From Bacteroidota bacterium (GTDB taxonomy: Bacteria > Bacteroidota > Ignavibacteria > UBA10030 > SZUA-254), in the NCBI GenBank assembly GCA_004322375.1, contig SCUC01000328.1:1-32458 (forward strand): a DNA stretch of 32,458 nt, in the 5' to 3' direction. This document shows, in pieces, positions 2,138-32,147 of the stretch. A program made the position numbers and the translations under genes. How positions within the stretch are numbered: position 1 is the first letter of the stretch; every line of letters begins with the position of its first letter. The notes beneath the pieces were generated by a model. The model saw only the letters and a program-made list of their open reading frames with translations, had not been told where the DNA came from and searched no databases.

Positions 2138-2352
2138 TTAAGCCTATTAGATATTTACTCGTCTATGGGGATGGCACCATGATGCCGTTTATGAGGGAAC
2201 CCGAAGTTGTAGCGTCACAACGTGCATTTGTGTTAAGCCATACTACTACTGTTGAGGATATCATTAATTGGATCGCCGACGGTTACAAATCTACACTAAA
2301 AATTATGGATGTGCAAGATTTCATACAGCTTCCAACTGAAGACGAAGTATGA
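2134..2352 (+). CDS. Hypothetical early protein.
   Basis: 72-aa ORF with ATGA overlap to the upstream gene and overlap with the transposase start. No motif recognised. Confidence 0.5.
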   Translation: MIKPIRYLLVYGDGTMMPFMREPEVVASQRAFVLSHTTTVEDIINWIADGYKSTLKIMDVQDFIQLPTEDEV

Positions 2353-4298
2353 CCTCGATCCCCCTCAAATCACTCGTAGGTATCGTAGCGTCGAATTCAG
2401 ACGCGACGCGTAAACGGTTGACAAGATACAACGTCGCTTCCGATTACGTCACCACGCACACCGGTAAGATACGGATGGTCTCGCTTGAAGATTTGCAAGC
2501 GAAGGGATTAGTGGATGAAACACAGGCGGCGCGGTTAATAGAAGCGAGCAGAGGACATGACGGGCAGGGAGACCCTTTCCCGCTAGCGGGACTCAGTGTG
2601 ACGAAAACTTTGGAGACGGATAAGTTGTTTTGCTCGGACGCTGTGCAAAAGGGATTCGGCGCTTCGACTCCGCTCAGCGCGACGGAGGTTGAAGTGCTTG
2701 ACCGGCTCTGCCCGGGATGGGAGCGGATGAAGGTGAAAGATAGAGTAACGGCTATCATTAAAGCAACCGGCTGCTCGCGTTCATACCTGTATCGAGATCA
2801 TAGAGAAGATGGACGCAAGCTGCGCGAGAAGGCGTTCGAGAAGCTGACGCAAGCGCAGCGGGACGCGATGATCAAGCATTATCTTTTTGCGAAAACGAGA
2901 TTGAAATTTTTTGAACTCTGCCGGAACGATGAGAGCCTCCCTCACATCCCGGACCGGACCATGTACCGGATCGCCGCCCAGCTCGAGACGTCGCTGAAAG
3001 ACGAGCTTACTCTTATTAATAAAGGGAGCCTGGCGCTGCGTCAGGCAAGCGAGCCGATTTTGCGCGACAAAACATACCTCAAACCCCTTCAAGTTATCAT
3101 CGGTGACTTTACCAGGATAGATAGAATTATCCGGTGGCACGACGGGACGCTCTGCACGCCTTACGCCTGCGTCTGGCAGGATTGGCGGACGAGCATGATA
3201 GTCGGGGTTGCGCTGACGCAGTTCCCGAACGCGCTCGGAGCGAAGACTTCGCTCTTTAATTGCTTCATTAATTATGGAATTCCCGAAATAGCTTTTATGG
3301 ACAACGGTAAAGAATTCAAAGCATACAAAGTCGCCGGCGAAAAATTAGAGACGCTGAACTACCGATTGGATTTTGTTGACGACGTAGAGCGGGATGTGAA
3401 GTCATTTGAGTACAAAGGCATCCTGCCCGCGCTTGGAGTGGCTTCGCTGCGAGCGATTGTGAAGAACCCGCGAAGCAAGCCTGTCGAGAGAACGTTCGGG
3501 CGGGGCGGATTCACGGATTGGGCGAAACAGTTCGGCGATTGGGTGGGAAGTAAGTACTGGCTGATGCCGGAAACGATTGCAAAGGCGATCGCAAAGCACA
3601 ATCAAGGCAAAGCGTACAAGGAACCGCTATCCGGAAAGTTTATCGAGTTCAGCGACCTTCACTCGCTGGCGGCAAGCGTGTGCGAGTTTATCGAGTTCTA
3701 TAATAATAGGGCGTCGTCCGGGTTCGGGATGGATGGCAAATCGCCGCAACAATTGTGGAATGAACTGACGGTAGAAAATCCTCCGCGGCGCGCACCGGTG
3801 CAGAAAATAGCCTTTCACTTCTTAGATGGAGACACGCGGAAGGTACGCAACACGGGGCATATCGAGTTTAAGAAGCACTTCTTTTACCGGAGCGAAGCGT
3901 TCTGGAAGCATCGCCTCGAGACGGTCTATATCCGGTTCAACCCGGTGGATGGGTTCTGGTGGCATCGAGCGGATAAGAAGCAGTTCGAGTTCCTTCCTAA
4001 GTTGCTCCTGGTATTCGACATCGAGGGGCAGTACATCGGAGAGGCGACGTTCGTCGAGCGGCAGGACCCGCTGAACGCGGATGTAAAGTCTCTGATGGCA
4101 AAACAAAGAAAGACGGTGAGCGAAGCGAAGTCGAACGTGAAGGCGTTGCTGCAGTCATCTGTCCCGAGCGCTCCGACGCTTGACGTGGTGGAAGCGGTGA
4201 AGGAACTGGAGGAGAAAACGAATCGCAGAGACGCAGAGGACGCGGAGAAAGAAGCAAAGCGGCTGCAGAAAAAATTTGGAATTATTTCGGAGATATAA
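2349..4298 (+). CDS. MuA-like DDE transposase.
   Basis: 649 aa. Candidate catalytic triad: GDFTRID (D at nt 3105-3107), FMDNGKEF (D at 3300-3302) and SKPVERTFG (E at 3486-3488). The last resembles the MuA ..KPVERAF.. glutamate motif as I recall it. EFYNNR lies downstream. Confidence 0.93.
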   Translation: MTSIPLKSLVGIVASNSDATRKRLTRYNVASDYVTTHTGKIRMVSLEDLQAKGLVDETQAARLIEASRGHDGQGDPFPLAGLSVTKTLETDKLFCSDAVQKGFGASTPLSATEVEVLDRLCPGWERMKVKDRVTAIIKATGCSRSYLYRDHREDGRKLREKAFEKLTQAQRDAMIKHYLFAKTRLKFFELCRNDESLPHIPDRTMYRIAAQLETSLKDELTLINKGSLALRQASEPILRDKTYLKPLQVIIGDFTRIDRIIRWHDGTLCTPYACVWQDWRTSMIVGVALTQFPNALGAKTSLFNCFINYGIPEIAFMDNGKEFKAYKVAGEKLETLNYRLDFVDDVERDVKSFEYKGILPALGVASLRAIVKNPRSKPVERTFGRGGFTDWAKQFGDWVGSKYWLMPETIAKAIAKHNQGKAYKEPLSGKFIEFSDLHSLAASVCEFIEFYNNRASSGFGMDGKSPQQLWNELTVENPPRRAPVQKIAFHFLDGDTRKVRNTGHIEFKKHFFYRSEAFWKHRLETVYIRFNPVDGFWWHRADKKQFEFLPKLLLVFDIEGQYIGEATFVERQDPLNADVKSLMAKQRKTVSEAKSNVKALLQSSVPSAPTLDVVEAVKELEEKTNRRDAEDAEKEAKRLQKKFGIISEI

Positions 4299-7927: not shown

Positions 7928-8105
7928 AATAAACTCACGGTGTGATTCGTACCTGAATGCGCCTATCGGGGACGAACACAAGCACACGGGCGAGTACGTG
8001 CAGTATCGCACACTGCGCGGGCGGGTTATAAATGTCTGCAAGGGTTGCAAGGCGGAATTGGAAGAATTGAAGGCATTTTTATCGAGAAAGACATCCGATG
8101 CGTGA
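7911..8105 (+). CDS. Hypothetical small Cys-motif protein.
   Basis: 64 aa containing CKGCKAEL. It overlaps both neighbours in operon style. Confidence 0.4.
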   Translation: MKAKRKINSRCDSYLNAPIGDEHKHTGEYVQYRTLRGRVINVCKGCKAELEELKAFLSRKTSDA

Positions 8106-8466
8106 CGGCGATGCTGTGAGTAAGACTATGCACGGCGTGAGCGGGCTTCAAACGCGCTACAATGCGGTGGAAATCGGTGGGAATTTTTTGAACCAAGATT
8201 GGAACGCACTACTTGAGAATTGCTTAAAACGATTCAAAAATAAAGGGTTGAGTTTGAAGGAAGGGGCAAAAGCAATAGGAATAGACCTCAAAAGCCTGTA
8301 TGAACTCGAAAAAGCTGCCTCCGGACATGAATTCAGTCTCGGTCGAAAAACCGTTTTCAAGATAGAAAAGTATGCGCTGAACACAAAACGGGGACAGCGC
8401 AAGCCCAAGCCGATAAAAAGCATCTGCGCTGTGTGCGGAGTTAGCCATATAAATGGTGAATGGTGA
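8098..8466 (+). CDS. Hypothetical protein with an HTH-like segment.
   Basis: 122 aa containing LSLKEGAKAIGIDLKSLYELEKA and a C-terminal CAVCG. Confidence 0.45.
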   Translation: MRDGDAVSKTMHGVSGLQTRYNAVEIGGNFLNQDWNALLENCLKRFKNKGLSLKEGAKAIGIDLKSLYELEKAASGHEFSLGRKTVFKIEKYALNTKRGQRKPKPIKSICAVCGVSHINGEW

Positions 8467-9170: not shown

Positions 9171-9536
9171 ATGAGTATGATAATTAGTTTTGCATGGACA
9201 ACGCCCGCGTTTAAGGCGCGGCAAAAAACGGTGACGAGACGGGATTGGTCTGATGAGTATGCAGCGAAGTTTCATAAGTACGATGTCGTCGAGGCATATA
9301 GCAGGCAGACGAGTTTTGGCGGCGTGCCGATTGGGAAGATTCTTATTAAGGAGACACCGTATCGAGAATGGAGCAACCTTGTACCGGAAATTGATTTTGA
9401 AAAAGAAGGGTTCTTATTCTTGGAAATGCAAAAAATAAAATGCGGCAAGTTGACTCCAATGCAAGTGTGGGAGCAATGGTTTGATGAGCCTGAGTTGCTT
9501 TATGTCGTGCGGTTCGAAATTATCGAGGTTTTTTAA
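9171..9536 (+). CDS. ASCH/PUA-like domain protein (tentative).
   Basis: 121 aa. The N-terminus ISFAWTTPAFKARQKTVTRRDW is typical of a phage ASCH-like family as I recall it. Confidence 0.45.
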   Translation: MSMIISFAWTTPAFKARQKTVTRRDWSDEYAAKFHKYDVVEAYSRQTSFGGVPIGKILIKETPYREWSNLVPEIDFEKEGFLFLEMQKIKCGKLTPMQVWEQWFDEPELLYVVRFEIIEVF

Positions 9537-10330
9537 TGTCCCGTCCAAAAATTAATACCATCCGCGAACGTGTTGCCGTTGACCTGGCAGAGAACGCGAT
9601 GCAGTATAAGCGGGCGTTGCTGCGTGAGATTGACGCGCTCTGGAGAGCAAGCGGTGGCACTTCGACTTCGCTCAGTGTGACGGAGCGTGAGGAGCGGTTG
9701 GAAGTGTTGATAAAAAAAGTCTCAGCCCAATTTAAGATTAAGCCGGCGGCGCAAAAGCTGCTGACCGATGAGGTGAAGCAAGCGCAGGCGGAGATTAAGG
9801 AAGTTTGGGCTGATTACTTTAGGGATAGAGCGGTGAGTCCCGCAAGCGGGATAAACTCCGAGCATGGAGCGGGGGTGATAAAACTAAAGCCGGGAGAGTA
9901 TGAGAAGCTGCGCTCGCTGTACAAGGTTGATTTTAAGGGACTGCAGGATGAGCAGCGCGAAATTATCATGGAGGAGGTGCGTAAGGCGGTGGGCGCGGGC
10001 AAGGGCTTTACGGATTTACGCGACGCGCTGGGCAAGCGTGGCATGGGAGCCGCACACGCGGAGACGCTCGCGAATACATCGCTTGCGGCTTTTGACAACG
10101 CTATCCATGTTGAGTTCGCTACACAATCAGGAATAACCAAATTTAAGTACGATGGTCCGGTAAATGCTACGACACGCCCGTTTTGCCGGGAACATGCCGG
10201 GAAAATATATACGATAGCGGAGCTAGACGCAATGGATAATGGCCAGGGGTTAAAGCCTACTTCCGTGTACCTAGGGGGATATCGTTGCCAACATTATCTT
10301 ACCGCACAGGTGGATGGACTGAGTGATTGA
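9536..10330 (+). CDS. Head morphogenesis protein, Mu gpF / SPP1 gp7 family.
   Basis: 264 aa. The C-terminal pattern HAETLANTSLAAFDNA...KFKYDGPVNATTRPFCREHAGKIYTIAELD is typical of the Mu F domain. Confidence 0.75.
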   Translation: MSRPKINTIRERVAVDLAENAMQYKRALLREIDALWRASGGTSTSLSVTEREERLEVLIKKVSAQFKIKPAAQKLLTDEVKQAQAEIKEVWADYFRDRAVSPASGINSEHGAGVIKLKPGEYEKLRSLYKVDFKGLQDEQREIIMEEVRKAVGAGKGFTDLRDALGKRGMGAAHAETLANTSLAAFDNAIHVEFATQSGITKFKYDGPVNATTRPFCREHAGKIYTIAELDAMDNGQGLKPTSVYLGGYRCQHYLTAQVDGLSD

Positions 10331-10331
10331 T

Positions 10332-10360
10332 TTGACTTTTGTTGTTGCCTTTTGTATATT
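10332..10360 (+). promoter_or_regulatory. Near-consensus sigma70-type promoter TTGACT-17 nt-TATATT.
   Basis: -35 at 10332-10337 and -10 at 10355-10360, with exactly 17 nt between. It starts right after the gpF-like stop. Confidence 0.7.
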
Positions 10361-10366
10361 GCCCTT

Positions 10367-10501
10367 GTCCAAAGTAACCAAAGGCGGAAAATCCGCCTCC
10401 GCAAGTGCGGTGTTTTAGTTTTATTACCGCCAGTATCATCACACTTGTTGTGGTGGAGCCCACCTTTGGTGGCTTTGGACGTACTGGCGGTATATTATTT
10501 T
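10367..10501 (+). ncRNA. Structured leader or small RNA candidate with alternative folds (attenuator-like).
   Basis: Complementary segments: 10367-10374/10473-10480 (8 bp), 10377-10384/10463-10470 (8 bp) and 10425-10435/10482-10492 (11 bp, followed by a U-rich tract). Local hairpins lie at 10383-10397, 10399-10410 and 10452-10464. Confidence 0.35.
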
Positions 10502-10535
10502 AAACACAAATGTCCAAATAACTAAAGGAGTTTCT

Positions 10536-10814
10536 ATGAAACAGAAACTTAATAAGGAGAGAATCATTGAAATGATTCTTGATTTTTATAAGAAAAATGG
10601 GAGAGTACCATCTAAAAGAGATTTTTGTAAACACAAGGGATATTGCAGTAACGCCACTGTGTATAAAATCTTTGGGAATTGGAATAATGCAATCCGCTCA
10701 AGTGGTTTGCCAACAAACCCTGCGTGGAAACCAGTTGTATTTCCAAAATGGTTATGCCTACTTAGACTTATTGTTATCAAAATAGAACAATATTATAAAA
10801 AGGAGGCACAGTAA
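10536..10814 (+). CDS. Protein with one homing-endonuclease-associated (HNH_repeat-type) repeat and no nuclease domain.
   Basis: 92 aa with strong SD AAGGAG. ERIIEMILDFYKKNGRVPSKRDFCKHKGYCSNATVYKIFGNWNNAIRSSGL matches the repeat consensus (..GR.P......... ......FGSW..A...AGL). Confidence 0.6.
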   Translation: MKQKLNKERIIEMILDFYKKNGRVPSKRDFCKHKGYCSNATVYKIFGNWNNAIRSSGLPTNPAWKPVVFPKWLCLLRLIVIKIEQYYKKEAQ

Positions 10815-11062
10815 TGTACTTTACATCACAATCACCCGAAACAACGCCGGAGGCAAAGCTGTTTAATTGCCGAAACGAATTAGACGCTTTGAACGAAGTG
10901 TTCGATACCCTTCACAGAAGCATAGAATCAAACGAAGATGAATATTATCGTTCCGACGGCTGGCTCGTTATGCTCATCCAAAACGATTTAGAAGAGATCA
11001 AAAAAAACATTTCAGAAGTGCAAGAAGAACTTTATCCGATAGGGAAAGGAGATGCGTTATGA
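10814..11062 (+). CDS. Small, strongly acidic hypothetical protein.
   Basis: 82 aa with SD AAGGAGG 7 nt upstream. By my count it has 18 D/E against 7 K/R. Confidence 0.55.
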   Translation: MYFTSQSPETTPEAKLFNCRNELDALNEVFDTLHRSIESNEDEYYRSDGWLVMLIQNDLEEIKKNISEVQEELYPIGKGDAL

Positions 11063-11541
11063 AAGAAGTAAATTGGAGCGGCAAAAAGTGGACTAAGCAG
11101 GAACTCATAGAAGCTGTGAAAAGTTTTTATCAGGCACATGGAAGGGTTCCCCGCGCCCGTGAGTTTACAGCAAAAAACAATTACCCATCTCGCGGAGCTT
11201 TTAGCAGACAATTCGGTAGTTTCTCTAATGGCGTAAGAGCGGCGGGTTACGAGCCGACAAAGCCCGGCGACTATTCTACGCGTACCGATGAACCTTATTG
11301 GACGGAGGAAAAAATATTAAATGCTATACTGGCATATCAGGACAGAACGGGAACAATTCTTACTGATAGGAAATTGCGTTATAAAATGATACCGGGATTA
11401 CCAGCAAGAAATACTATAAGGAAGCATTTCGGGACTATACTAAAGGCCCGGGCAAAAGCACAGAAGTTAAAAAAACTTACAGAGACATTGAAACGTGTAC
11501 AGAAGAAAATTGATAAATTATTAAAGGGGAATAATGAATAA
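11059..11541 (+). CDS. Protein with two homing-endonuclease-associated repeats and a basic C-terminal tail, without a nuclease domain.
   Basis: 160 aa with SD AAGGAG. Repeats are QELIEAVKSFYQAHGRVPRAREF...FSRQFGSFSNGVRAAGY and EKILNAILAYQDRTGTIL...IRKHFGTILKARAKA. Confidence 0.6.
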   Translation: MKEVNWSGKKWTKQELIEAVKSFYQAHGRVPRAREFTAKNNYPSRGAFSRQFGSFSNGVRAAGYEPTKPGDYSTRTDEPYWTEEKILNAILAYQDRTGTILTDRKLRYKMIPGLPARNTIRKHFGTILKARAKAQKLKKLTETLKRVQKKIDKLLKGNNE

Positions 11542-11711
11542 ATTGACGCTGGACAGGGGCAGGTTCCGGCAGTGGTGGCAAATGTTTGGAATTTATTGAT
11601 ACATCCTCCCTCTCCGTTTACCGGTTAAACGGAGAATCGTCCGGCAACGTTTGCGGTACGCCTCCCAACTACTTTACCAGCGAAAAAGCCGGAGAATAAC
11701 TACCCTCCGAT

Positions 11712-11757
11712 AAATCCCGTCCGTGGTGATAAACATTCATACGGGCGGGATTTTTTT
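11712..11757 (+). terminator. Rho-independent terminator at the convergence point of the cassette and the minus-strand late block.
   Basis: Stem AAATCCCGTCCGT (11712-11724) / ACGGGCGGGATTT (11741-11753, one G-U pair) followed by a T7 run. Confidence 0.7.
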
Positions 11758-12349
11758 ATGATAAGACTTTTAACAAATTTTTCGAGATAGTTTCCCCGGC
11801 GAGCTTGGTGAGGCGCTCCCGCTCTTCTTTTGATAAATCGAAAAAAACATGCTTGCGACGAGATTTCCCTGCCCCCTCGATGTTGTGATAGCGGGCGATG
11901 CGTTCAGCGTCCGTGTCGGGGAATCCTACATCGGCGCCCGAGTCGTCTTTCCTGATTAAACCCAGGTTCCGCATCAGCCTGCCCGTCCAGCTCATCACCA
12001 CATGATCGCTGAACTTGCCCGCGAGCTTGCGAAACTCTTTATATCCTCCCTGCACGATGATCCACGTGTTGCCGCTCTTAGCGGTAAACAGAACATACTT
12101 GTCTTTATTTTGCGCCTGCTCTTTTGTGAGCTTCGCTTTTACATTTGCCTGGAACTTCGCGAACGGGAGCGGGAGCGGCGTGACGGAGTACTGCTCGGCG
12201 CCGGGGCTTGAGCCTTCGAGATACTTGCCGTCGAGCGTCCGTTTACGGATGATGGCAATAACTCCGGAAGAGAGACGGAGCAATACCACTTCGTCAATAA
12301 TTTTGTTGGGAAGGTTGTCGAGCTTCCGTTCAAGTTCTTCGGTTGTCAT
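11756..12349 (-). CDS. Virion morphogenesis protein, Mu gpG-like (tentative).
   Basis: 197 aa directly downstream of the portal gene. Segments SWTGRLMRNL and YHNIEGAGKSRRKHVFFDLSKEE resemble the gpG/tail-completion family. Confidence 0.5.
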   Translation of the reverse strand: MTTEELERKLDNLPNKIIDEVVLLRLSSGVIAIIRKRTLDGKYLEGSSPGAEQYSVTPLPLPFAKFQANVKAKLTKEQAQNKDKYVLFTAKSGNTWIIVQGGYKEFRKLAGKFSDHVVMSWTGRLMRNLGLIRKDDSGADVGFPDTDAERIARYHNIEGAGKSRRKHVFFDLSKEERERLTKLAGETISKNLLKVLS

Positions 12350-12394
12350 AACCCTTCCTTATTCCTTCCCTTGTTAAGGGAAGCAGAATTCAAT

Positions 12395-13594
12395 TTATTC
12401 GAGGATTTCATCTGTCTCGGCGGGAGGGGTGAAACCGGTTTTCCGGTAAGCTTCGTCTTTCCGGATTTTCATCCCGGCGTCTTTCATGTTCAGGATTACC
12501 CGGCTGTTTGTCTCGGTGTCCCCGATCTCGTCCACGTTGAAGCGGAGGACGTAGGGGCATAGTTCCGCTGTGGAATAATTTTGAGCGAAGTCTTGCGCAA
12601 GGTACTGGTCGGTGATGATCTCCTGTACGAGCATGATGTCGCCATAGAGATAATCCTCCCGGACGAAATTTCCGGCGAGAGCTTTTGCGTAGTTGCTCCC
12701 GACCTTGGAATCCGTCGTCATCGCCTGTCCGAGGATGCTGATGCTTTGTTTGTCTTCGATAAGCGCGACAAACTGTTTGTGCATTTCAACAATGCCGGAG
12801 CGCTGTGCCTCGAGAAGGTTCAGCTTCACGTCGTCCGAGAATGCGGCGCGGGAACTCGAAGAGAGAGCGTCAAGCCCGTCAACGATTGTCTGAATCTCGT
12901 CGGGGTCAGCCCCCTTGATGTACTGCGCGTACAAGAGCGGGTCGCCGAACTTTTTGTTCGCCATGGACCACTGGAACATGTCGTCGTACTTGAGCCAGGC
13001 GTAAATCATATTGATGCGCGCAAAAGAACCGGTGAAGTTCTCGTCAACGCCGTCGAGCGGGTTGGCGCGTATGATGATGTGCGTCGCCGGGTCGAGAGGC
13101 TTGGAGGTGAACGCCTGCGACTTCGTATCTGTATCAATGAAGAGCAAGCCATTAAGCGACTTCGTATCAATGTCGAGCTCGGTGAGGTTATACTTTTGAA
13201 CGGAAGCAACGCGCGTTCCGAGCAACGAATCGTTTTGCCAGACAAGACGAACCGCCCCCTGCCCGAAGATATACGCGTTGACAATGTTGCCGAAAAGCTT
13301 GCTGATGCCGGACTTGACCATCCTTGACCGTATTTGCTCGATGCGTTTCTTGTCTGCGTCTTTTGCCGTCAAGCCTTCGAGCATGTCAATGCGCCGCTGG
13401 AACCCTGTAAGAGCGAGCTTGCGGGTTTGGAGCAGCCCCATAAAGTGTGGGTCAATCTGACCGATTTGCATCAGCCAGGACATGAGCGGGCGCACATCGC
13501 GGGTTGCATCGGTTGCGTTCGCGGATTGCACGTATTTGGCAAGCCGCGTGAGTTCGGGGGTAAGCTTGGTTGCGAGGTCGGAGTTGATGTACAT
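12395..13594 (-). CDS. Portal protein (Mu gp29/DUF935-like).
   Basis: 399 aa immediately downstream of the large terminase. The call rests on size, position and an acidic C-terminus, not on a verified motif. Confidence 0.7.
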   Translation of the reverse strand: MYINSDLATKLTPELTRLAKYVQSANATDATRDVRPLMSWLMQIGQIDPHFMGLLQTRKLALTGFQRRIDMLEGLTAKDADKKRIEQIRSRMVKSGISKLFGNIVNAYIFGQGAVRLVWQNDSLLGTRVASVQKYNLTELDIDTKSLNGLLFIDTDTKSQAFTSKPLDPATHIIIRANPLDGVDENFTGSFARINMIYAWLKYDDMFQWSMANKKFGDPLLYAQYIKGADPDEIQTIVDGLDALSSSSRAAFSDDVKLNLLEAQRSGIVEMHKQFVALIEDKQSISILGQAMTTDSKVGSNYAKALAGNFVREDYLYGDIMLVQEIITDQYLAQDFAQNYSTAELCPYVLRFNVDEIGDTETNSRVILNMKDAGMKIRKDEAYRKTGFTPPAETDEILE

Positions 13595-13597
13595 AAT

Positions 13598-13643
13598 CAG
13601 TAGCCAGTATGTTAGTAGTCAGTATGTCAGTATGTCAGTGATT
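13598..13643. repeat. 8-mer microrepeat filling the TerL-portal junction: CAGTATGT at 13605, 13620 and 13628, with variants at 13598, 13613 and 13636.
   Basis: Read directly. In the gene (minus) sense it reads ACATACTG, so TGA recurs every 8 nt. Confidence 0.8.
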
Positions 13644-15363
13644 AGAGTCTTCCAGTGACGGAGCGTTTTGAGAGAGAGAGAATTTTTTTGTCGCTTTTGC
13701 CGCGCGGGGATGGCTTGAATATTTCATGGAGCATCTCGAACGCGCTGATGAGCGAGTCGGGAGCGTCATCCTGCTTGTTTGCTTTCTTCCCGCGAAACGA
13801 AAACAATTGATCGGTGTAGAGCTTGCCGTGAACGAGGTCGCGAAATTTAGGCGGAAAAAAAAGCGTCCCGTTTTGGTAAGCGGTCTGAGCGCCCTTTGTG
13901 ATGTCGTCCACGCGGTAACGCTTGTAATGAATGGGCGGCACGGGGTGATTGTGAAGTAGCGCGAAGTTGCGAACATGGTTTGTCCAGGTTGATTCGTTCG
14001 CAACGTTCCCATCAAAGCCAAGATGCCTGCCGCTCACGAGATCGGATGTAAGCCCGCGCATGACGAGAATATCCATGAGGAGCTTGTCGCTGTCGCTGTA
14101 TGATTGGCAAATTGCGTTCACGATATAATAATTCATCGTTGAGGGAGACCATGCGAGGCAGGTCGCTGCGGTGGTATCCCCCTTCCCTTTCAGAGCGCAA
14201 TTCGGGTCGGTGAAGATGACGCCTTTCAGATCCCTGGGGAGCATTTCCCATTCCCGGTAATATGTGTCGGGGAAAATGTCGCCGGACTTAACTGTCGGCT
14301 TCCCTTGGAAGTTGCCATTCCAATCATACTGGTCTTTCGGTTTGCACAGAGATTTGAGCTCGGATTCGGAAGAGGCGGGGTAACGCTCGGGCCATAAGCT
14401 ACCACACACCCCCTCCCCCGTCTCTAGAGGGGAATTACTCTCAGCCAGAGGCTGATCTCCGCTCCGCTCCGACCATGCGGGGAAGATATGAAGCTCGAAC
14501 TGATCGGAGAGGATGCCGTTCTCCTGCTCCCGTACCAGATGGTTCATGGCGCATCGGGCGTCGAAGTTGTTCCCTTCCCAGAGGAGCGTGCCGTCATCGG
14601 TGAGAGAGGTGCGCATCTCGTTGATCTTGTCAATACGCGCAGCGATGGAGTCGGAAGTAAACGAGCTCGTGAGGTTCTCGACATCGGTGAGGTAAATGTA
14701 ATCGAGACGGAGGATGAAGCCGCGCTGCAGTCCGCGCGTGGAACGGTCGAGCGAAATGGCAGAGATGTACGTCCCTTTCGGGTTCGCGTTTGTCTGCAAA
14801 AAGAGGGTGTCTTCGTTCGCCTGATTCCATTTCATTTCATAATCGTGGCAGAGACGCGGGTTTGTCTCGAAGAAGAGCACGATGTCGGCAAGCGAATTTG
14901 CAGCAGGCGTTAGGGTTTCGCATCCTAGCGCCATATACCGGCGCGTACCATGCAGCAAGTCGTACGCGAACTTCTTTTTCAGGGTCGCCGTTTTTGCAAA
15001 GCCGCGGGGACCGTGAACGACATGCGCCTTTTTGTCGCGCCTCTCGTTGATGCGGACGATCTCGCGGTGGAACTCGCCGATCGGGGAATAGTCGTCGTAC
15101 ATTTCAGGAGGAAAGTAGGTTATATCCCAGAACCAAAAATCAGACAACGAGGCAATGAGCCGTGAGCGTTGAGCGGCGGGTGTTGCGTCTTCGCCGGCGA
15201 AGGGAGCGACGGGCTTGAGCAGGGCGTCAAGCTCCCGTTGCTTTTGTTCGGCTTCCGCCCGTTCTGCCTGCTTCTGCAAGCGGAGAGATTCCCTCTGATT
15301 CTTCTCGGCGAGCTTTCGAAGGTTATCGAGGACTTCACGTCCTGTGGTGAATGTGCTGCTCAT
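13642..15363 (-). CDS. Terminase large subunit.
   Basis: 573 aa with a Walker A-like GPRGFAKT and a later acidic DYIYLTDVE. The C-terminal nuclease-like region contains IFTDPNCALKGKGDTTA. Gene order is TerS-like/TerL/portal. Confidence 0.88.
   Translation of the reverse strand: MSSTFTTGREVLDNLRKLAEKNQRESLRLQKQAERAEAEQKQRELDALLKPVAPFAGEDATPAAQRSRLIASLSDFWFWDITYFPPEMYDDYSPIGEFHREIVRINERRDKKAHVVHGPRGFAKTATLKKKFAYDLLHGTRRYMALGCETLTPAANSLADIVLFFETNPRLCHDYEMKWNQANEDTLFLQTNANPKGTYISAISLDRSTRGLQRGFILRLDYIYLTDVENLTSSFTSDSIAARIDKINEMRTSLTDDGTLLWEGNNFDARCAMNHLVREQENGILSDQFELHIFPAWSERSGDQPLAESNSPLETGEGVCGSLWPERYPASSESELKSLCKPKDQYDWNGNFQGKPTVKSGDIFPDTYYREWEMLPRDLKGVIFTDPNCALKGKGDTTAATCLAWSPSTMNYYIVNAICQSYSDSDKLLMDILVMRGLTSDLVSGRHLGFDGNVANESTWTNHVRNFALLHNHPVPPIHYKRYRVDDITKGAQTAYQNGTLFFPPKFRDLVHGKLYTDQLFSFRGKKANKQDDAPDSLISAFEMLHEIFKPSPRGKSDKKILSLSKRSVTGRL
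14404..14471 (+). repeat. Composite REP-like cluster lying in-frame inside the terminase gene. It comprises copy B of the ACACACCCC...AGAGGGGAATTA element (14404-14437), the hairpin TCAGCC-AGA-GGCTGA (14441-14455) and CTCCG x3.
   Basis: It has the same sequence family and the same plus-strand orientation as the intergenic copies. It encodes ..ERSGDQPLAESNSPLETGEGVCG.. on the minus strand. Confidence 0.8.
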
Positions 15364-15971
15364 TGACCTGCCTTCTCGTACCGTTCGAGCTCTTCCGAGT
15401 AAATCAGGATAACCTCCTCGTCGGAAGCGTCGGGCTTGAAGCGGCGAATGAGCTGCGCTATAATTTCAGCGTCGCCGCGTTTCAGTTTATTTTGCATTTC
15501 GCGGTTGTGAATGTCCTTCAAAATTACGGAGCAATCTTTGAGCGCTTTGACGGATTCTTCCGGAGGAAGCGTCGAGGAGTTTATCTTCTCAAGCGTTCTT
15601 AGAGTTTGGAATTTCAGGAAGTCGTCCGGGTCGCTGAATGCTGAAAGGTCTGTCGGGTTTTCGGCGTCGTCAATCGGGGCGCCGAATTTGCGCCTCTGTC
15701 CTTTGTCGCGGCGCGGGCGGTAGTTCGATTTTGAACGACCGGCAATGCAATTATAGACCTGCCAGTAGCTGAGGTTGATCTCCGCCATAATTTCTTTTAT
15801 GGTTTTTCCCTGGTTGAAAAGGGTAATCGCTTTTTTGCGGTTGGGAATTGTTGACCAGCGCTTCCCTTTTGTCCCGCCGTTGTTGTTCAATTTCACTTGC
15901 GTGGCAGAGGCTGTTTTTTTATTCTCTCCGCCAGAGGCGGATTTCACTTCGTTCAACATTCTTATTCCCAT
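15360..15971 (-). CDS. Terminase small subunit-like HTH protein.
   Basis: 203 aa with a basic N-terminus and HTH GKTIKEIMAEINLSYWQVYNCIAG. It has an ATGA-type overlap with TerL at 15360-15363. Confidence 0.55.
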   Translation of the reverse strand: MGIRMLNEVKSASGGENKKTASATQVKLNNNGGTKGKRWSTIPNRKKAITLFNQGKTIKEIMAEINLSYWQVYNCIAGRSKSNYRPRRDKGQRRKFGAPIDDAENPTDLSAFSDPDDFLKFQTLRTLEKINSSTLPPEESVKALKDCSVILKDIHNREMQNKLKRGDAEIIAQLIRRFKPDASDEEVILIYSEELERYEKAGQ

Positions 15972-16393
15972 TTATTGAGGTGAAAGCGGCAACGGATTGT
16001 GACGACGCTTTCCGCGGCGGTCTTTTTCAAAATCTGAAAAGGCTGCGAGCGCGGTTGAAGCACGAACTTCGAGCCGTCAATCGTAAAGGCTGTCTCTGTG
16101 ACGAGCTTGAATGTTTTGAACGCAATCGTCCACGCTGCTGAGGAGGATTCTTGCACAGTTTGACCCTGAGCGGAAACGATGAGCATCACAAGCTCGAAGG
16201 GAACTGCAATGGACTTTGTATGCAGGTTGCCCTGTGATTCTTCGACCGTATCAATGTACAGTCCGATGTATGGCGGCTCGAACGTAGAGGGTACCTCTTC
16301 GCCGATCTCGCCGGCGGACTCGATTCCAAGCTCGAGCTTGTTCGTGTTGAGCAGCGTGGCTACTGCTTCGGCGACTGTGTCGGGGATAATCAT
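15962..16393 (-). CDS. Hypothetical head-completion/neck protein.
   Basis: 143 aa lying between the connector-like gene and the TerS-like gene. No motif recognised. Confidence 0.4.
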   Translation of the reverse strand: MIIPDTVAEAVATLLNTNKLELGIESAGEIGEEVPSTFEPPYIGLYIDTVEESQGNLHTKSIAVPFELVMLIVSAQGQTVQESSSAAWTIAFKTFKLVTETAFTIDGSKFVLQPRSQPFQILKKTAAESVVTIRCRFHLNKWE

Positions 16394-16400
16394 TTGTCTT

Positions 16401-16440
16401 AACTATGATTAATGTGATTGAATGATGACTATGATTTATA
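16401..16440 (+). repeat. 40-bp TGATT-rich junction element, copy 1.
   Basis: AACTATGATTAATGTGATTGAATGATGACTATGATTTATA is 33/40 identical to 18741-18780 by manual alignment. Confidence 0.8.
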
Positions 16441-16822
16441 GCTTTGTGATTACCGTATCCGATTGAAACATGGGTTCGGGTTTGGCGGCGAGCTCATCAT
16501 TATCGAGCTTGAGGCTTCCCTCCTTTATTAGCGTAAGCGTTTGCATAGCGTTGTTATACATATCCTTTCTGCGGTTGTACTCGACTTCCTCGATCTTCCC
16601 CTGCTGTCCTGTCGTGAACCAGGTTACGAGAGCGCAAGCGATGTTGCGCAGGATGGGACGCGCATCTGCAGGCGTTGCCGGTACGGGGATTTGAAGCGTG
16701 AGCGCAATGATGTCGTCCACCTGAAGGATTGTTTCATCGAGCCCGTCGGGAGCTTCGGCGGCAGTGAGCCAGCTGTTTTTTTGTGCGAACGATTTGAGAA
16801 TTTCTTGATTTACAAAGCTCAT
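16436..16822 (-). CDS. Head-tail connector/adaptor-like protein (DUF1320/gp36-like or gp6-like).
   Basis: 128 aa whose overall pattern (..PVPATPADARPILRNIACALVTWF...RRKDMYNNAMQTLTLIKEGSLKL) resembles Mu gp36-type proteins. Tentative. Confidence 0.45.
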   Translation of the reverse strand: MSFVNQEILKSFAQKNSWLTAAEAPDGLDETILQVDDIIALTLQIPVPATPADARPILRNIACALVTWFTTGQQGKIEEVEYNRRKDMYNNAMQTLTLIKEGSLKLDNDELAAKPEPMFQSDTVITKL

Positions 16823-29111: not shown

Positions 29112-29695
29112 GAAAATTCATCATTATTGTAATAGCTCTACTTTCGATTTTTGCTTCGTCAACCAAGACAGGGGGAACAGCGGCGAATAGCGGAGGTGGA
29201 ATAGCGTGGAGCAATCCGACAAACGGACAAGCGTGTGATAACACATATACAACAGTTGTATTATCCGGCGAGGCGTCATCAAAATATCTACTCGTAACTA
29301 ATTTTGGATTTACGATTCCAACAGGAGCAACAATAGACGGAACCGTTGTGAGTATCCAATGGAAGGGAACTATTCTTGAGGCGGGAGTGAAAGACTTCGA
29401 TGTTTCCCTTGTTAAATCAGGCATTGCTTCTGGAGACAATAAAGCTGTGGCAATAGTATTGCCTACAGTCGAGGAAACACGTAATTATGGGGGTGCGAGT
29501 GATACATGGGGAGCGGGGTTTACATACACCGACTGGAACGCTTCCACAAGCGGAGCTAGGATAAAGCTGCAGGAAGGAGGCGGATTGGAAATGGAAACAG
29601 GGTATATTGATTGCGTTCAAATTACCGTGTATTATACGGAGGCGGGGGGAACGAAGAGGTATTTGATAGGGTATTCACGGCAGGTAGAATTTTAG
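29108..29695 (+). CDS. Secreted hypothetical protein, last gene before the right end.
   Basis: Signal-peptide-like MRKFIIIVIALLSIFASS. The start overlaps the fibre gene stop. Confidence 0.5.
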   Translation: MRKFIIIVIALLSIFASSTKTGGTAANSGGGIAWSNPTNGQACDNTYTTVVLSGEASSKYLLVTNFGFTIPTGATIDGTVVSIQWKGTILEAGVKDFDVSLVKSGIASGDNKAVAIVLPTVEETRNYGGASDTWGAGFTYTDWNASTSGARIKLQEGGGLEMETGYIDCVQITVYYTEAGGTKRYLIGYSRQVEF

Positions 29696-29771
29696 GAGGT
29701 GGCAGGGGGCGGGTGGTGGGAGAAATGTGGAAGTTTCCCTGCCTTTGGCGGGGTTAGGGGTGGAAGAATAT

Positions 29772-30021
29772 GGGGGCGGCTTGTGAGCCCGTCTCGATCC
29801 CGCTCAGGCGGGACGGACGAGGCGAACCTGGGCTTTTATATCAATAATCCATGACTTGCCGGGCAGCATAATTGAAATTACCCCATTTTAATGAAATAAA
29901 CCATAGCTGCAAATTGCTTTTGTGGTGGGGTTTTAGTACGTTTACAGTATGCTCATACCTGTAGTGTACTGCCTCATCTCAAGAATGTGGCAAGAAAATT
30001 TCAAGTTTATGGCACGTTACA
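29772..30021 (-). repeat. Prophage right end (attR-like), inverted counterpart of 1033-1207.
   Basis: The reverse complement of 30001-30021 equals 1033-1053. Conserved blocks lie at 29897-29923 and 29849-29878. An extra ~45 nt carries a TGTAAACGTAC terminal-like motif. Confidence 0.8.
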
Positions 30022-30035
30022 ATATTGAAATCCTC

Positions 30036-30064
30036 TTGATTAACGTGGAAAGTTTTTGTACACT
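30036..30064 (+). promoter_or_regulatory. Promoter candidate TTGATT-17 nt-TACACT for the lipoprotein gene.
   Basis: -35 at 30036-30041 and -10 at 30059-30064. It lies 15 bp outside the prophage end. Confidence 0.45.
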
Positions 30065-30108
30065 ATTGTGTATGCAAATTTTTATTACGCCATTGTAGAA
30101 AGAACAAG

Positions 30109-30576
30109 ATGATGCCACGCTCACTTTTCGTTCTCTTGATATGCTTACTATCTCTCAGTTGCGAAAATGAAAACCCGCTGCGCACGTTCGGAAGCGTTAC
30201 CCCGATTGAAATTTCTCAAGAGCAATTGCTTCACGCGACGACTGCCAGGAGCAAATATTACCTTCGCGAACAAATTCGAATCACAATATACAACGGTAGC
30301 GATTCCATTATTTATATACCGACCTGCGCCCGTCAAATTACCTATTCACTTCAAAAATTCACAGACGGAACGTGGAAAGATATTAGCGCGAACGGTCTCC
30401 CCTGCATCGGGTTCAATTCTTACGGGAACATTACGCTCTTTCAAGGAAGGTCGTACGTCCATACGACGGCAATTGTCTATTTCGGAACATACCGGTTTCG
30501 CTACCCGGTCACGCTGGGTGAAGGAGCAGGAACATTCTGGCTCTACACCAACGAGTTTTCGGTTGATGGAAGGTAA
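30109..30576 (+). CDS. Lipoprotein (hypothetical).
   Basis: MMPRSLFVLLICLLSLSC has a lipobox (LSLSC). Confidence 0.65.
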   Translation: MMPRSLFVLLICLLSLSCENENPLRTFGSVTPIEISQEQLLHATTARSKYYLREQIRITIYNGSDSIIYIPTCARQITYSLQKFTDGTWKDISANGLPCIGFNSYGNITLFQGRSYVHTTAIVYFGTYRFRYPVTLGEGAGTFWLYTNEFSVDGR

Positions 30577-30644
30577 AACGATTTTTTCATTGAATTTTCG
30601 TTAATAACAGGTTAGCTGATTGGTGGATTATTTTTCACGTTGCT

Positions 30645-30881
30645 ATGCCGACAGTTAAAAATATTCCAGGACCATACAGATTCTTCTTTTATAGCTTTGA
30701 TTGTAATGAACCCAAGCATATTCACATTAAACGAGAAAACATGGTTTGTAAGTTCTGGCTTGATCCTGTTTCTCTTTCTGAAAATTTTGGATTCACACCG
30801 ACGGAATTGAATCGCATTCAAAAATTGATTTACACAAATATAGAGTCATTAATATCAGCTTGGCATGAACACTGTGGTTAA
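30645..30881 (+). CDS. DUF4160-family protein.
   Basis: 78 aa. MPTV...GPYRFFFYSFDCNEPKHIHIKRE...KFWLDPV is the typical DUF4160 pattern. Confidence 0.75.
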   Translation: MPTVKNIPGPYRFFFYSFDCNEPKHIHIKRENMVCKFWLDPVSLSENFGFTPTELNRIQKLIYTNIESLISAWHEHCG

Positions 30882-31137
30882 TTATACTGAACCTCGAATC
30901 AAGCATGTTACTATATCGGATGAGCTTATCACAGCATTCCTGGTAGATGGACGAGTTGTGAGCGTCCCTCTTGTTTGGTCATGGAGACTTTCGGAGGCGA
31001 CACTTGCTCAAAGAAATCATTGGGAGATTATGGGAGACGGGCAGGGTATTCATTGGCCCGATATTGATGAAGATATCAGCGCGCGTGGTATGCTTTACGG
31101 TACGCCTGCTCACCGCCCCCATCTTGAATTCGCTTGA
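30865..31137 (+). CDS. DUF2442-family protein.
   Basis: 90 aa overlapping the upstream gene by 17 nt. ..FLVDGRVVSVPLVWSWRLSEATLAQRNHWEIMGDGQGIHWPDIDEDIS is the typical DUF2442 pattern. Confidence 0.75.
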   Translation: MNTVVNYTEPRIKHVTISDELITAFLVDGRVVSVPLVWSWRLSEATLAQRNHWEIMGDGQGIHWPDIDEDISARGMLYGTPAHRPHLEFA

Positions 31138-31250
31138 TGATAATATTGTATTGTTCGCGAAGAAAGCAGAATCTTGAAGCCAACTTCTTTGTTTTTTATT
31201 CTTGAGTCTGTTAGTGAAATACAATATCTAACAATTAGTGTGGAATAAAG

Positions 31251-32132: not shown

Positions 32133-32147
32133 ATCCTCCTCGTTTTT

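What the first reader, a model, noticed from the sequence alone, without database searches (positions are those of the whole stretch)
10331..11757. Self-contained AT-rich cassette with nuclease-less homing-endonuclease-repeat proteins and an acidic protein
Between the gpF-like gene and the inverted late block lies a unit with its own near-consensus promoter (TTGACT-17-TATATT). It has a ~170-nt structured leader, three tightly coupled genes each with a strong AAGGAG(G) Shine-Dalgarno, and a clean terminator (11712-11757). It is visibly more AT-rich than its neighbours (not computed). Two products (10536..10814, 11059..11541) consist only of homing-endonuclease-associated repeats (1 and 2 copies) and lack any HNH, GIY-YIG or LAGLIDADG catalytic domain. 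The middle product is strongly acidic. This has the architecture of a lysogen-expressed moron, and I know of no described function for this gene combination. It is my best candidate in the window for an undescribed phage-borne system, such as exclusion, defence or anti-defence.
Basis: partly seen in the sequence, partly recalled or inferred. Interest (0 to 1): 0.7.

Follow-up and report, generated by a model that had tools for sequence, protein, structure and literature searches.

The report
Riboswitch-like leader gating a Mu-phage operon
The cassette is real, but its conserved core is a previously undescribed self-pairing leader RNA plus a tiny acidic protein found in a small group of Mu-like phages, while the "homing-endonuclease-repeat" proteins are interchangeable DNA-binding passengers; the module's function is still unknown.

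Summary
The promoter, ~175-nt structured leader, three coupled genes with AAGGAG SDs, terminator, low GC, PF18780-only proteins and acidic middle protein are all confirmed.

p1 occurs only in this contig. p2 plus a PF18780 protein recurs in five modules of related Mu-like phages. In other modules p2 is followed by a Bro-N protein, HTH proteins or unknown proteins.

The constant part is a sigma70 promoter in fixed register plus a leader RNA, found in 11 instances and absent from Rfam. The leader shows strong covariation: 26 of 39 pairs have double changes, reached by 0 of 500 shuffles.

It has two mutually exclusive folds. One is a long-range helix A:C. The other is a terminator-like helix T with hairpin H3. 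A third pairing, C:D, covers the Shine-Dalgarno, because D copies A. All three pairings are phage-specific.

The closest analogue is P1 immI (c4 RNA-icd-ant), but the leader is not an Rfam c4 member. p2 is a helical hairpin with no known relatives.

No known defence, Acr or toxin family matches, so function is unresolved. I rate it a new variant of a known kind, of moderately high interest.

The parts
10332..10360 (+). sigma70-type promoter: TTGACT (10332-10337), 17-nt spacer, TATATT (10355-10360)
   Evidence: Found by the consensus scan. The same -35/-10 with a 16-17 nt spacer sits in identical register, with the -10 ending one base before the leader model start, in all 11 leader instances.
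10361..10535 (+). Structured leader RNA, a new family absent from Rfam. It has two alternative folds plus an anti-SD pairing.
   Evidence: Covariance model hit of 142.8 bits, E = 2.4e-30. MFE -61.5 kcal/mol, z = -4.6. No Rfam match.
10367..10387 (+). Segment A (GUCCAAAGUAACCAAAGGCGG), the 5' strand of long-range helices P1 and P2. It is a near-copy of segment D.
   Evidence: A:C duplex energy is -25.6 kcal/mol for cognate pairs against -12.9 for non-cognate pairs across 10 leaders. For P1 and P2, 12 of 19 pairs have double-sided changes.
10399..10410 (+). Hairpin H1 (CCGC-AAGU-GCGG), followed by the U-rich run 10412-10424
   Evidence: H1 columns are 94% paired, and 4 of 5 pairs have compensatory changes.
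10426..10435 (+). T5' (ACCGCCAGUA), the 5' strand of the terminator-like helix T
   Evidence: Helix T is 92% paired, and 8 of 10 pairs have double changes. Cognate energy is -19.2 against -9.0 kcal/mol non-cognate.
10437..10455 (+). Hairpin H2 (CAUCACA-CUUGU-UGUGGUG)
   Evidence: 92% paired with compensatory changes.
10459..10480 (+). Segment C, the antisense strand. It pairs with A, with D, or folds on itself as hairpin H3.
   Evidence: H3 is 92% paired, reached by 0 of 500 shuffles. Its loop is the P2 3' strand, so H3 and P2 exclude each other.
10482..10501 (+). T3' (UACUGGCGGU) plus the U-rich tract AUAUUAUUUU, a terminator-like end about 135 nt from the predicted start
   Evidence: The U-tract motif UUAUUUU is conserved in the alignment.
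10512..10530 (+). Segment D (GUCCAAAUAACUAAAGGAG), a copy of A that ends in the Shine-Dalgarno AAGGAG (10525-10530) of the first gene
   Evidence: C:D duplex energy is -20.4 kcal/mol cognate against -11.1 non-cognate, and the cognate pair is best in 10 of 10. With A blocked, the SD becomes paired in the free fold.
10536..10814 (+). p1: 92 aa, pI 10.0, one PF18780 repeat plus a hydrophobic C-terminal tail. Unique to this contig. It is inserted between the leader-controlled RBS and p2.
   Evidence: Pfam E = 2.6e-11. 35% identical to p3 repeat 1. Absent from all related loci. Lowest GC of the cassette, 0.34.
10814..11062 (+). p2: 82 aa, pI 4.2, a helical hairpin. It belongs to a new small protein family with invariant L16, R35-S36-I37 and D48.
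   Evidence: No Pfam or PHROG family. 12 hits among 1.84 billion representatives. Alignment A9. AF2 pLDDT 75.5, helices 12-39 and 45-73. No fold match. pN/pS about 0.25.
11059..11541 (+). p3: 160 aa, pI 10.3, two PF18780 repeats (the second degenerate) plus a long basic C-terminal helix. Presumed DNA-binding partner, start overlapping the p2 stop (ATGA).
   Evidence: Pfam E = 2.8e-14. Second repeat i-E = 3.9e-7. Secondary structure. Orthologues at 61%, 50% and 36% identity in L007, L016 and L003.
11542..11711 (+). 170-nt 3' trailer with no detectable similarity to the trailers of related phages
   Evidence: blastn-short against all fetched loci finds only itself.
11712..11757 (+). Intrinsic terminator at the convergent junction with the 197-aa gene (11756-12349, minus strand)
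   Evidence: RNAfold gives -24.5 kcal/mol plus U7 on the + strand. The minus strand gives -17.3 with a poor U-tract.

Best explanation
The cassette is one copy of a modular, RNA-gated accessory operon found in a small clade of Mu-like transposable phages.

Host RNA polymerase starts at a strong sigma70 promoter and transcribes a ~175-nt leader that can adopt alternative structures.
- In one fold, the 5' segment A pairs with segment C (helices P1 and P2). This leaves the Shine-Dalgarno region D free.
- In the other fold, C folds on itself (H3) and the flanking strands form helix T next to a U-tract, which looks like an intrinsic terminator.
- If A is unavailable, C can also pair with D. D is a copy of A that ends in the SD, so this pairing would occlude ribosome binding.

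The leader is therefore a decoy / antisense / target device that sets how much of the downstream message is made and translated. Its pairing sequences differ from phage to phage, and between two modules in the same phage, so each module is self-specific.

What is gated is a small acidic helical-hairpin protein (the p2 family), translationally coupled to an exchangeable basic DNA-binding protein. In this window that partner is p3, a two-repeat PF18780 protein. An extra one-repeat gene, p1, is inserted in front of p2.

Shown: the conservation, the covariation, the alternative pairings, the modularity, and purifying selection on p2 and p3.

Inferred: that helix T terminates transcription, that C:D blocks translation, what flips the switch, and what the proteins do.

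By analogy with P1 immI (c4 RNA-icd-ant), my preferred reading is an immunity or antirepressor-like regulatory module whose specificity lies in the RNA. I hold that last step with low confidence.
For: Recurrence: p2 plus a PF18780 partner recurs at the MuF / inverted-block junction in L003, L007 and L016, and in the early region of L022.

Exchangeable partners: other modules carry Bro-N (L019), a 119-aa HTH protein (L003 second module), an HTH (L025), or unknown proteins (L022, L023).

The leader can occur without p2: an independent leader hit of 121.8 bits in L023 drives a 44-aa ORF and an AP2-domain protein.

Covariation: 87.4% of cells are paired against 70% in shuffles and at most 40% when partners are slid. 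26 of 39 pairs have double changes, reached by 0 of 500 shuffles. H3 is 92% paired, 0 of 500.

Phage-specific pairing: cognate against non-cognate duplex energies are A:C -25.6 / -12.9, C:D -20.4 / -11.1, and T -19.2 / -9.0 kcal/mol. Three control pairings show no difference.

Bistability: the two states lie within about 3-8 kcal/mol of each other. With A blocked, the free fold gives T+H3 or C:D with the SD paired.

Promoter: in fixed register in 11 of 11 leaders.

Strand: G-U pairs and far weaker minus-strand model scores (21 bits against 171 for the same L003 leader) indicate a sense-strand RNA.

Proteins: pN is well below pS for p2 and p3. The charge pair is pI 4.2 and 10.3, with an ATGA overlap.

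The immI features used for the analogy come from PMC8198154 and PMC8201110: the c4-icd-ant1/2 operon, C4 antisense RNA blocking ant, and icd being required for ant expression.
Against: - No transcript data exist, so the promoter, termination at T and SD occlusion are all computational.
- T, P1 and P2 share no nucleotides, so a pseudoknotted single fold cannot be excluded on paper.
- In the window the U-tract after T is interrupted (AUAUUAUUUU), so termination may be weak.
- No trigger, whether ligand, protein or RNA, is identified.
- p3 DNA binding is inferred only from the family's association with homing endonucleases. The AF2 model of p3 is poor (pLDDT 59.5).
- The leader is not an Rfam c4 member.
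- p2 has no detectable similarity to anything in 50,697 sequenced phages.
- p3 is not an Ant-type protein.
- The whole family is known only from about a dozen metagenomic contigs.
Confidence: 0.55

Rival explanations
1. Anti-defence operon of the acr-aca type. p2 would be a small acidic inhibitor of a host defence, for example a DNA mimic. It would be expressed immediately from a strong host-type promoter. The downstream DNA-binding protein (p3, Bro-N or HTH) would be an Aca-like repressor that later shuts the promoter down.
For: - A strong constitutive-type promoter, a small acidic first gene and a DNA-binding second gene.
- Partners come from several DNA-binding families. Aca proteins likewise fall into many families, which are HTH regulators (PMC9410906, PMC13551039).
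- From memory, the position next to Mu-type head genes resembles that of acr loci in Pseudomonas Mu-like phages.
- p2 has a narrow distribution.
Against: - 9 of 11 promoter regions, including the window, contain no inverted repeat with perfect arms of 6 nt or more, which an Aca-type operator would need.
- The promoter and leader stay conserved while the partner changes, which is the opposite of partner-specific operators.
- Here the small protein is constant and the binder varies, the reverse of the usual acr-aca pattern.
- p2 matches no Pfam or PHROG family and no fold.
- The L023 second module has the leader but no p2.
Confidence: 0.17
2. Part of the phage's own developmental circuit. The DNA-binding partner would be a middle or late transcription regulator, analogous to Mu Mor/C. 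p2 would be its modulator or anti-activator, and the leader would time their appearance.
For: - The partner in L003's second module is a homologue of a gene sitting in the window's early operon (8098-8466; 34% identity, E = 5e-16).
- Modules lie at the end of the early or middle region, just before the late genes.
- Pfam found no Mor/C-type family in the window ORFs I scanned.
- In L023 the MuF gene follows directly downstream of the leader-driven AP2 gene.
Against: - Closely related phages with syntenic late genes carry unrelated partners (PF18780 against Bro-N: window and L007 against L019).
- The Zoogloea relative lacks the module entirely.
- The leader model finds no copies upstream of the late operons.
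- The promoter looks activator-independent.
Confidence: 0.15
3. Toxin-antitoxin, abortive-infection or superinfection-exclusion module expressed from the prophage. The acidic p2 and basic p3 would form a neutralising pair.
For: - Two small overlapping genes of opposite charge.
- Mix-and-match partners, a general feature of TA families (from memory).
- Own promoter and terminator, low GC, and a variable locus.
Against: - No PADLOC match for any module protein.
- No Pfam toxin or antitoxin family.
- p2 is an all-helical hairpin, unlike the known small toxins I am aware of.
- A TA pair would not need an elaborate RNA switch.
Confidence: 0.08
4. Decayed remnant of a free-standing homing endonuclease gene that has lost its nuclease domain and split into fragments.
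For: PF18780 is named for its association with homing endonucleases. The region is AT-rich and lies between conserved phage genes.
Against: - p2 and p3 are under purifying selection, and orthologues stay intact at 36-73% identity.
- No nuclease remnant in any frame: Pfam on the ORFs and the ORF list.
- Conserved promoter, leader and translational coupling.
- Repeat-only PF18780 proteins exist elsewhere (P0007).
Confidence: 0.03

Closest known systems
Phage P1/P7 immI operon (c4 antisense RNA - icd - ant1/2)
   Same: - A structured RNA is encoded in the leader of the same transcript as its target.
- The RNA is complementary to the ribosome-binding region of a small first ORF. Icd is 73 aa and p2 is 82 aa.
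- Expression of the downstream, overlapping regulator gene depends on that first ORF (PMC8198154, PMC8201110, PMC11897509).
- From memory of Citron and Schuster 1990, P1 also has upstream copies (a1, b1) of the downstream target sites (a2, b2), and P1/P7 heteroimmunity rests on covarying complementary sequences. That would parallel the A/C/D design and the phage-specific pairing seen here.
- In L019 the partner is a Bro-N protein, a domain found in an antirepressor-type (Bro/KilA) phage protein (PMC5944126).
   Different: - No sequence or structure homology: the Rfam c4 model does not hit, even at E <= 10.
- This leader also has a terminator-like alternative fold.
- The host phage is a Mu-like transposable phage, not P1-like.
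- p2 has no detectable similarity in the phage collection.
- p3 is a PF18780 repeat protein, not Ant.
- RNase P processing and C1 control are unknown here.
Transcription attenuators and riboswitch expression platforms
   Same: - Mutually exclusive helices are both supported by covariation (P2 against H3).
- One fold places a G+C-rich helix next to a U-tract.
- An alternative pairing covers the SD.
   Different: - No ligand, leader peptide or known aptamer is identified.
- Helix T shares no nucleotides with P1/P2, unlike classical terminator/antiterminator pairs.
- The 'anti-antisense' element A is a sequence mimic of the RBS region.
Anti-CRISPR / Aca operons of phages
   Same: A strong promoter, a small acidic protein first, a DNA-binding protein second, and a position inside the structural gene region of a Mu-like phage.
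   Different: - No palindromic operator.
- The binder varies while the small protein is constant.
- Control appears to be RNA-based.
- No similarity to known Acr or Aca families.
PF18780 (HNH_repeat) proteins
   Same: p1 and p3 pass Pfam's threshold (44 and 54 bits against a cut-off of 26). Repeat-only proteins of this family exist elsewhere (P0007, four repeats, Bacillus).
   Different: - Here they are short (one or two repeats).
- They are fused to a hydrophobic tail (p1) or a basic long helix (p3).
- They are embedded in a riboregulated operon.
- No function is published for the family: only one paper in the library mentions it, and only in a table of structure models.

Membership tests
Pfam PF18780 HNH_repeat | Profile match above the gathering score | tested here: met
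   p1 scores 44.1 bits and p3 scores 53.6 bits against a cut-off of 26. The second p3 repeat is detected only with a custom HMM, i-E = 3.9e-7.
Homing endonuclease (HNH / GIY-YIG / LAGLIDADG) | Presence of a catalytic nuclease domain | tested here: not met
   No nuclease family at E <= 1 in p1, p2 or p3. No further ORF in the cassette could supply one.
Rfam c4 antisense RNA (RF01695) / P1 immI | Covariance-model match to the c4 family | tested here: not met
   No hit at E <= 1 over 1.7 kb. c4 is not among the chance-level hits at E <= 10 on the leader alone. No hit at gathering score in seven related loci.
Rfam c4 antisense RNA (RF01695) / P1 immI | Co-transcribed RNA segment complementary to the RBS of the first small ORF | tested here: met
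   C:D pairing is -20.4 kcal/mol cognate against -11.1 non-cognate, with the cognate best in 10 of 10. This is computational only.
Rfam c4 antisense RNA (RF01695) / P1 immI | Downstream gene encodes an antirepressor that inactivates the phage repressor | not testable with these tools
   p3 is a PF18780 protein. Only L019 has a Bro-N partner.
Transcription attenuator / riboswitch-type switch | Two mutually exclusive structures, each supported by covariation, one of them a terminator | tested here: inconclusive
   P1/P2 and H3/T all covary, and the two states are near-isoenergetic. Actual termination and the trigger are untested.
Acr-Aca operon | Aca-type HTH regulator with an inverted-repeat operator in the operon's promoter | tested here: not met
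   No Pfam HTH family in p3. No perfect inverted repeat of 6 nt or more in 9 of 11 promoter regions, including the window.
Acr-Aca operon | The small protein inhibits a CRISPR-Cas system | not testable with these tools
   No sequence or fold similarity to anything annotated. A phage challenge experiment is needed.
Known anti-phage defence systems (PADLOC-DB 2.0) | Match of any component to a defence-system model | tested here: not met
   Zero families at E <= 0.01 for p1, p2, p3 and six partner proteins.
Type II toxin-antitoxin | Membership of a known toxin or antitoxin family | tested here: not met
   Pfam and PADLOC give none. Only the generic features (two small overlapping genes of opposite charge) are present.
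Phage moron | Own promoter and terminator, deviant composition, presence or absence varying among related phages | tested here: met
   The related Zoogloea prophage carries different genes at the junction. Some phages carry a second copy elsewhere.
Phage moron | Expression from the prophage in lysogens | not testable with these tools
   No transcript data are available.

The most novel reading that the evidence does not exclude
The leader would be a new class of phage riboregulator. It would be a self-contained decoy (A) / antisense (C) / target (D) device with a built-in terminator. Its phage-specific complementarity would act as an RNA 'immunity code' in transposable phages, controlling a new family of small effector proteins (p2) together with plug-in DNA-binding partners. 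The leader RNA released at the terminator could also act in trans on incoming phages of the same specificity.
Probability: 0.3. Interest if true: 0.75.

Novelty: new variant of a known kind. Interest (0 to 1): 0.62.

Why it matters
If the switch works as the covariation suggests, it would be a second, independently evolved example of the rare P1 immI logic: an mRNA leader that carries its own antisense regulator plus a decoy of the target. It would occur in Mu-like phages, which to my knowledge (from memory) have no described RNA-based immunity or attenuation system.

It would also define two uncharacterised families, an RNA absent from Rfam and a ~80-aa helical-hairpin protein absent from Pfam and PHROGs. 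It would give a concrete context for PF18780 repeat proteins, which currently have no assigned function.

The orthogonal A/C/D sequences, including two different sets within one phage genome, make the hypothesis directly testable by compensatory mutagenesis. They could also be useful as programmable cis-regulators.

On the practical side, gene callers routinely mis-annotate this locus by extending the p2 ORF through the leader.

Tried and rejected
- Near-identity DNA searches of the region against GenBank phages and complete E. coli genomes found nothing.
- Scans of IMG/VR found nothing real. The p3 and 197-aa alignments gave no confirmed relatives. The single p2 match (L009) and the five leader-pattern matches (L010-L014) were spurious or chance matches.
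- The genome and metagenome scans with the 197-aa protein returned nothing new.
- The portal scan of GTDB genomes gave one Zoogloea MAG prophage, and it lacks the module.
- The p2 family alignment was too diverse for pattern-based locus retrieval.
- Sequence search of the PDB gave no relatives for p2 or p3.
- Foldseek of the p2 model against PDB and BFVD returned only generic helical hairpins, all with E > 0.4.
- The single-sequence AF2 model of p3 was too poor to search with.
- The tRNA scan was negative.
- A strong-gyrase-site or pac-site reading of the leader was considered and dropped. The covariation, the G-U pairs and the strand asymmetry point to an RNA, and the position is not central in the genome.
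- A conserved leader peptide was considered. The frame through the leader is open in some phages, which is why gene callers over-extend the ORF, but it is closed by stops in L003, L007 and L016, so it is not conserved.
- A 5'-end helix P0 (GCCCU with T3') suggested by the four-sequence alignment was not supported: the A:T3' pairing shows no cognate preference.
- The P1 primary papers and the P1 genome paper are not in the held library. The a1/b1-a2/b2 detail therefore rests on memory.
Full report
**Context.** The window is a Mu-like transposable phage.
- It carries a DDE_2 transposase (2349-4298), a MuB-like ATPase, GemA-like and Gam proteins, an ASCH protein and a Mu F-like protein (9536-10330).
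- An inverted block follows on the minus strand: a 197-aa gene, the Mu portal, TerL and others. Then come a Mu I-like protease and the major head protein.
- NCBI labels the contig as a 'Bacteroidetes bacterium' MAG.
- The cassette lies at the convergent junction between the rightward unit ending in Mu F and the leftward late block.

**Observation check.**
- The three ORFs and their overlaps (TAATG, ATGA) and the three AAGGAG(G) Shine-Dalgarno sites are read directly from the sequence.
- The promoter TTGACT-17-TATATT is at 10332-10360. In isolation it is no better than chance (4 sites found, 3.6 expected).
- GC is 0.34-0.42 in the three genes, against 0.49 for the window and 0.53 for Mu F.
- p1 and p3 match PF18780 and nothing catalytic.
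- p3's second repeat is degenerate but significant with a custom repeat HMM, i-E = 3.9e-7.
- p2 is acidic (pI 4.2), while p1 and p3 are basic (pI 10.0 and 10.3).
- The terminator is a 14+ bp stem followed by U7, -24.5 kcal/mol on the + strand.
- The leader folds at -61.5 kcal/mol, z = -4.6.

**Is the trio a unit? No.**
- The exact proteins occur on one public contig only.
- Indexed searches found one relative each of p2 and p3. A profile search added P0006.
- Their contigs are syntenic Mu-like phages, mostly from groundwater metagenomes.
  - L003 and L007 carry p2 plus a two-repeat PF18780 protein.
  - L016 carries p2 plus a three-repeat PF18780 protein.
  - In all three the module sits between Mu F and the inverted block, and none has p1.
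- The flanking proteins are 51-64% identical to those of the window. p2 is 45-73% identical and p3 is 36-61% identical.
- pN is far below pS for both p2 and p3. These are maintained genes, not decaying fragments.

**An exhaustive HMMER search with the p2 profile found only 12 proteins among 1.84 billion representatives.**
- Several hits are 'long' only because gene callers ran the ORF back through the leader. For example, GILPLSK is the translation of GGTATATTGCCCTTGTCTAAA.
- Every hit with retrievable context lies in the same kind of Mu-like phage, but the gene after p2 differs:
  - a Bro-N protein in L019;
  - a 119-aa HTH-like protein in a second module in L003's early region;
  - a three-repeat PF18780 protein in L022's early-region module;
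  - 109-aa and 156-aa proteins of unknown family in L022's junction module;
  - 133-aa and 308-aa proteins of unknown family in L023;
  - an HTH protein in L025.
- The window has a single p2 copy.
- The window's homologue of L003's HTH partner (8098-8466; E = 5e-16) sits in the early operon with no leader in front of it.
- A related prophage in a Zoogloea MAG carries an XRE/ImmA-like gene at the junction and has no module.
- The locus is therefore a variable cargo site, and promoter-leader-p2 behaves as a portable front end.

**The leader RNA is the most conserved and most interesting part.**
- Ten leaders were aligned.
- A covariance model built from them scores all ten at 76-171 bits. It also finds an eleventh, independent copy in L023 at 122 bits. 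That copy drives a 44-aa hydrophobic ORF and an AP2-domain protein instead of p2.
- All eleven have a sigma70-type promoter whose -10 ends exactly one base before the model's first position, with a 16-17 nt spacer and 8-10 of 12 matches. This is what turns the window's promoter from a chance-level match into a credible one.
- Rfam 15 has no matching family, either for the window or for seven related loci.

**Structure of the leader.**
- For helices P1, P2, H1, T and H2, 87.4% of cells form pairs. This compares with 70% in column shuffles and at most 40% when the partners are slid.
- 26 of 39 pairs have changes on both sides. No shuffle out of 500 reaches any of the five measures.
- A further hairpin, H3, is 92% paired, again with 0 of 500 shuffles reaching the observed percentage paired, number of double-change cells or covariation score.
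- H3's loop is the 3' strand of P2, so H3 and P2 cannot coexist.
- The layout is therefore as follows.
  - State II: A:C (P1 + P2) closes a junction that holds H1 and H2.
  - State I: helix T closes a junction that holds H2 and H3, and is followed by a U-rich tract.
- The two states lie within about 3-8 kcal/mol of each other in nine leaders.
- In every phage a segment D just upstream of the start codon copies segment A and ends in the SD. C can therefore pair with D.

**Cognate against non-cognate duplex energies** show that these pairings are phage-specific.

| Pairing | Cognate (kcal/mol) | Non-cognate (kcal/mol) |
|---|---|---|
| A:C | -25.6 | -12.9 |
| C:D | -20.4 | -11.1 |
| T5':T3' | -19.2 | -9.0 |

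- For C:D the cognate partner is the best in 10 of 10 leaders.
- The control pairings A:D, A:T3' and T5':C show no cognate preference.
- With A blocked, free folding gives either T+H3 or C:D with the SD paired.
- G-U pairs and weak minus-strand scores indicate a sense-strand RNA.
- Two modules within one genome (L003, L022) use different A/C/D sequences, so each module is self-specific.

**The proteins.**
- p2 is predicted as a two-helix hairpin (helices 12-39 and 45-73, pLDDT 75.5). The family's invariant R-S-I and D48 lie at the hairpin tip.
- Foldseek against PDB and BFVD gives nothing better than E = 0.4.
- p3's single-sequence model is poor. It does show two three-helix units and a long C-terminal helix.
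- No module protein matches PADLOC. No sequenced phage in GenBank carries p2 or the leader.

**Mechanism, and how sure I am.**
- I am fairly confident (about 0.8) that the leader is a functional, bistable cis-regulatory RNA controlling read-through and/or translation of the first gene. In the window that gene is p1, and p2 and p3 follow by coupling.
- I am much less confident about the biological role.
- The closest analogue is P1 immI, where a leader-encoded antisense RNA (c4) blocks the RBS of the small icd gene and thereby blocks the coupled antirepressor ant (PMC8198154, PMC8201110, PMC11897509). This is a resemblance in logic only, not family membership.
- The acr-aca reading is weakened by two findings: the promoter lacks palindromic operators, and the promoter and leader stay constant across different partners.
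- Developmental-regulator, TA/defence and decayed-homing-endonuclease readings are listed as rivals.

**Verdict.** The trio hypothesis fails. A conserved RNA switch plus the p2 family emerges instead. I rate it a new variant of a known kind, of moderately high interest, with function unresolved.

Noticed in passing
whole window; L026: NCBI labels the contig as a 'Bacteroidetes bacterium' MAG. Yet it uses sigma70 -35/-10 promoters and strong AAGGAG Shine-Dalgarno sites. The only genome-collection relative of its portal is a prophage in a Zoogloea (Betaproteobacteria) MAG. The host is probably proteobacterial and the contig mis-binned.
   Followed up: partly
window 11756-16822 (minus strand): The 197-aa gene, portal, TerL and three upstream genes form an inverted block between Mu F and the protease / major-head genes. 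This departs from the Mu order as I recall it. The arrangement is conserved in all related contigs (L003, L016, L022, L023).
   Followed up: partly
L003 10886-10962; L019 1731-1796; L016 ~2990-3065; L007 998-1018: A conserved ~75-nt element containing a hairpin lies directly downstream of the 19x-aa gene's stop codon in three phages. L007 has a partial copy in inverted orientation next to the p3 stop. The window has no copy.
   Followed up: partly
window 11542-11711: A 170-nt untranslated trailer lies between the p3 stop and the terminator. It resembles nothing in the related loci. It contains a hairpin (about 11611-11634) and a 37-aa TTG ORF. Its purpose is unknown.
   Followed up: partly
window 10399-10424, and the equivalent position in all leaders: Hairpin H1 is itself followed by a U-rich run, for example GUUUUAGUUUUAUU. 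Transcripts could therefore also end about 60 nt from the start. That would give a short RNA with A as a free 5' seed and a terminator hairpin, which is the shape of an Hfq-type sRNA.
   Followed up: no
L023 6882-7643: A second leader copy, independent of the model's training set, drives a 44-aa hydrophobic ORF, then an AP2-domain protein, then the Mu F gene. It has no p2-like gene. The leader is therefore not strictly tied to p2.
   Followed up: partly
P0008, P0010, P0013, P0014, P0015 (L019, L003, L022): Public gene calls extend the p2 ORF 65-110 codons upstream through the promoter and leader. This creates artificial 150-200-aa proteins, which is a systematic annotation artefact at this locus.
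   Followed up: yes
window 9171-9536: An ASCH-domain protein (phrog_11705, E = 1.6e-28) sits immediately upstream of Mu F, and its stop overlaps the Mu F start.
   Followed up: no
window 29500-32458: GC drops to 0.33-0.42 at the right end of the window. This may be the phage end and host flank, or another accessory region.
   Followed up: no
L003 18460-18533: A tRNA gene (57.5 bits) lies in the related phage L003. ARAGORN finds none in the window.
   Followed up: no
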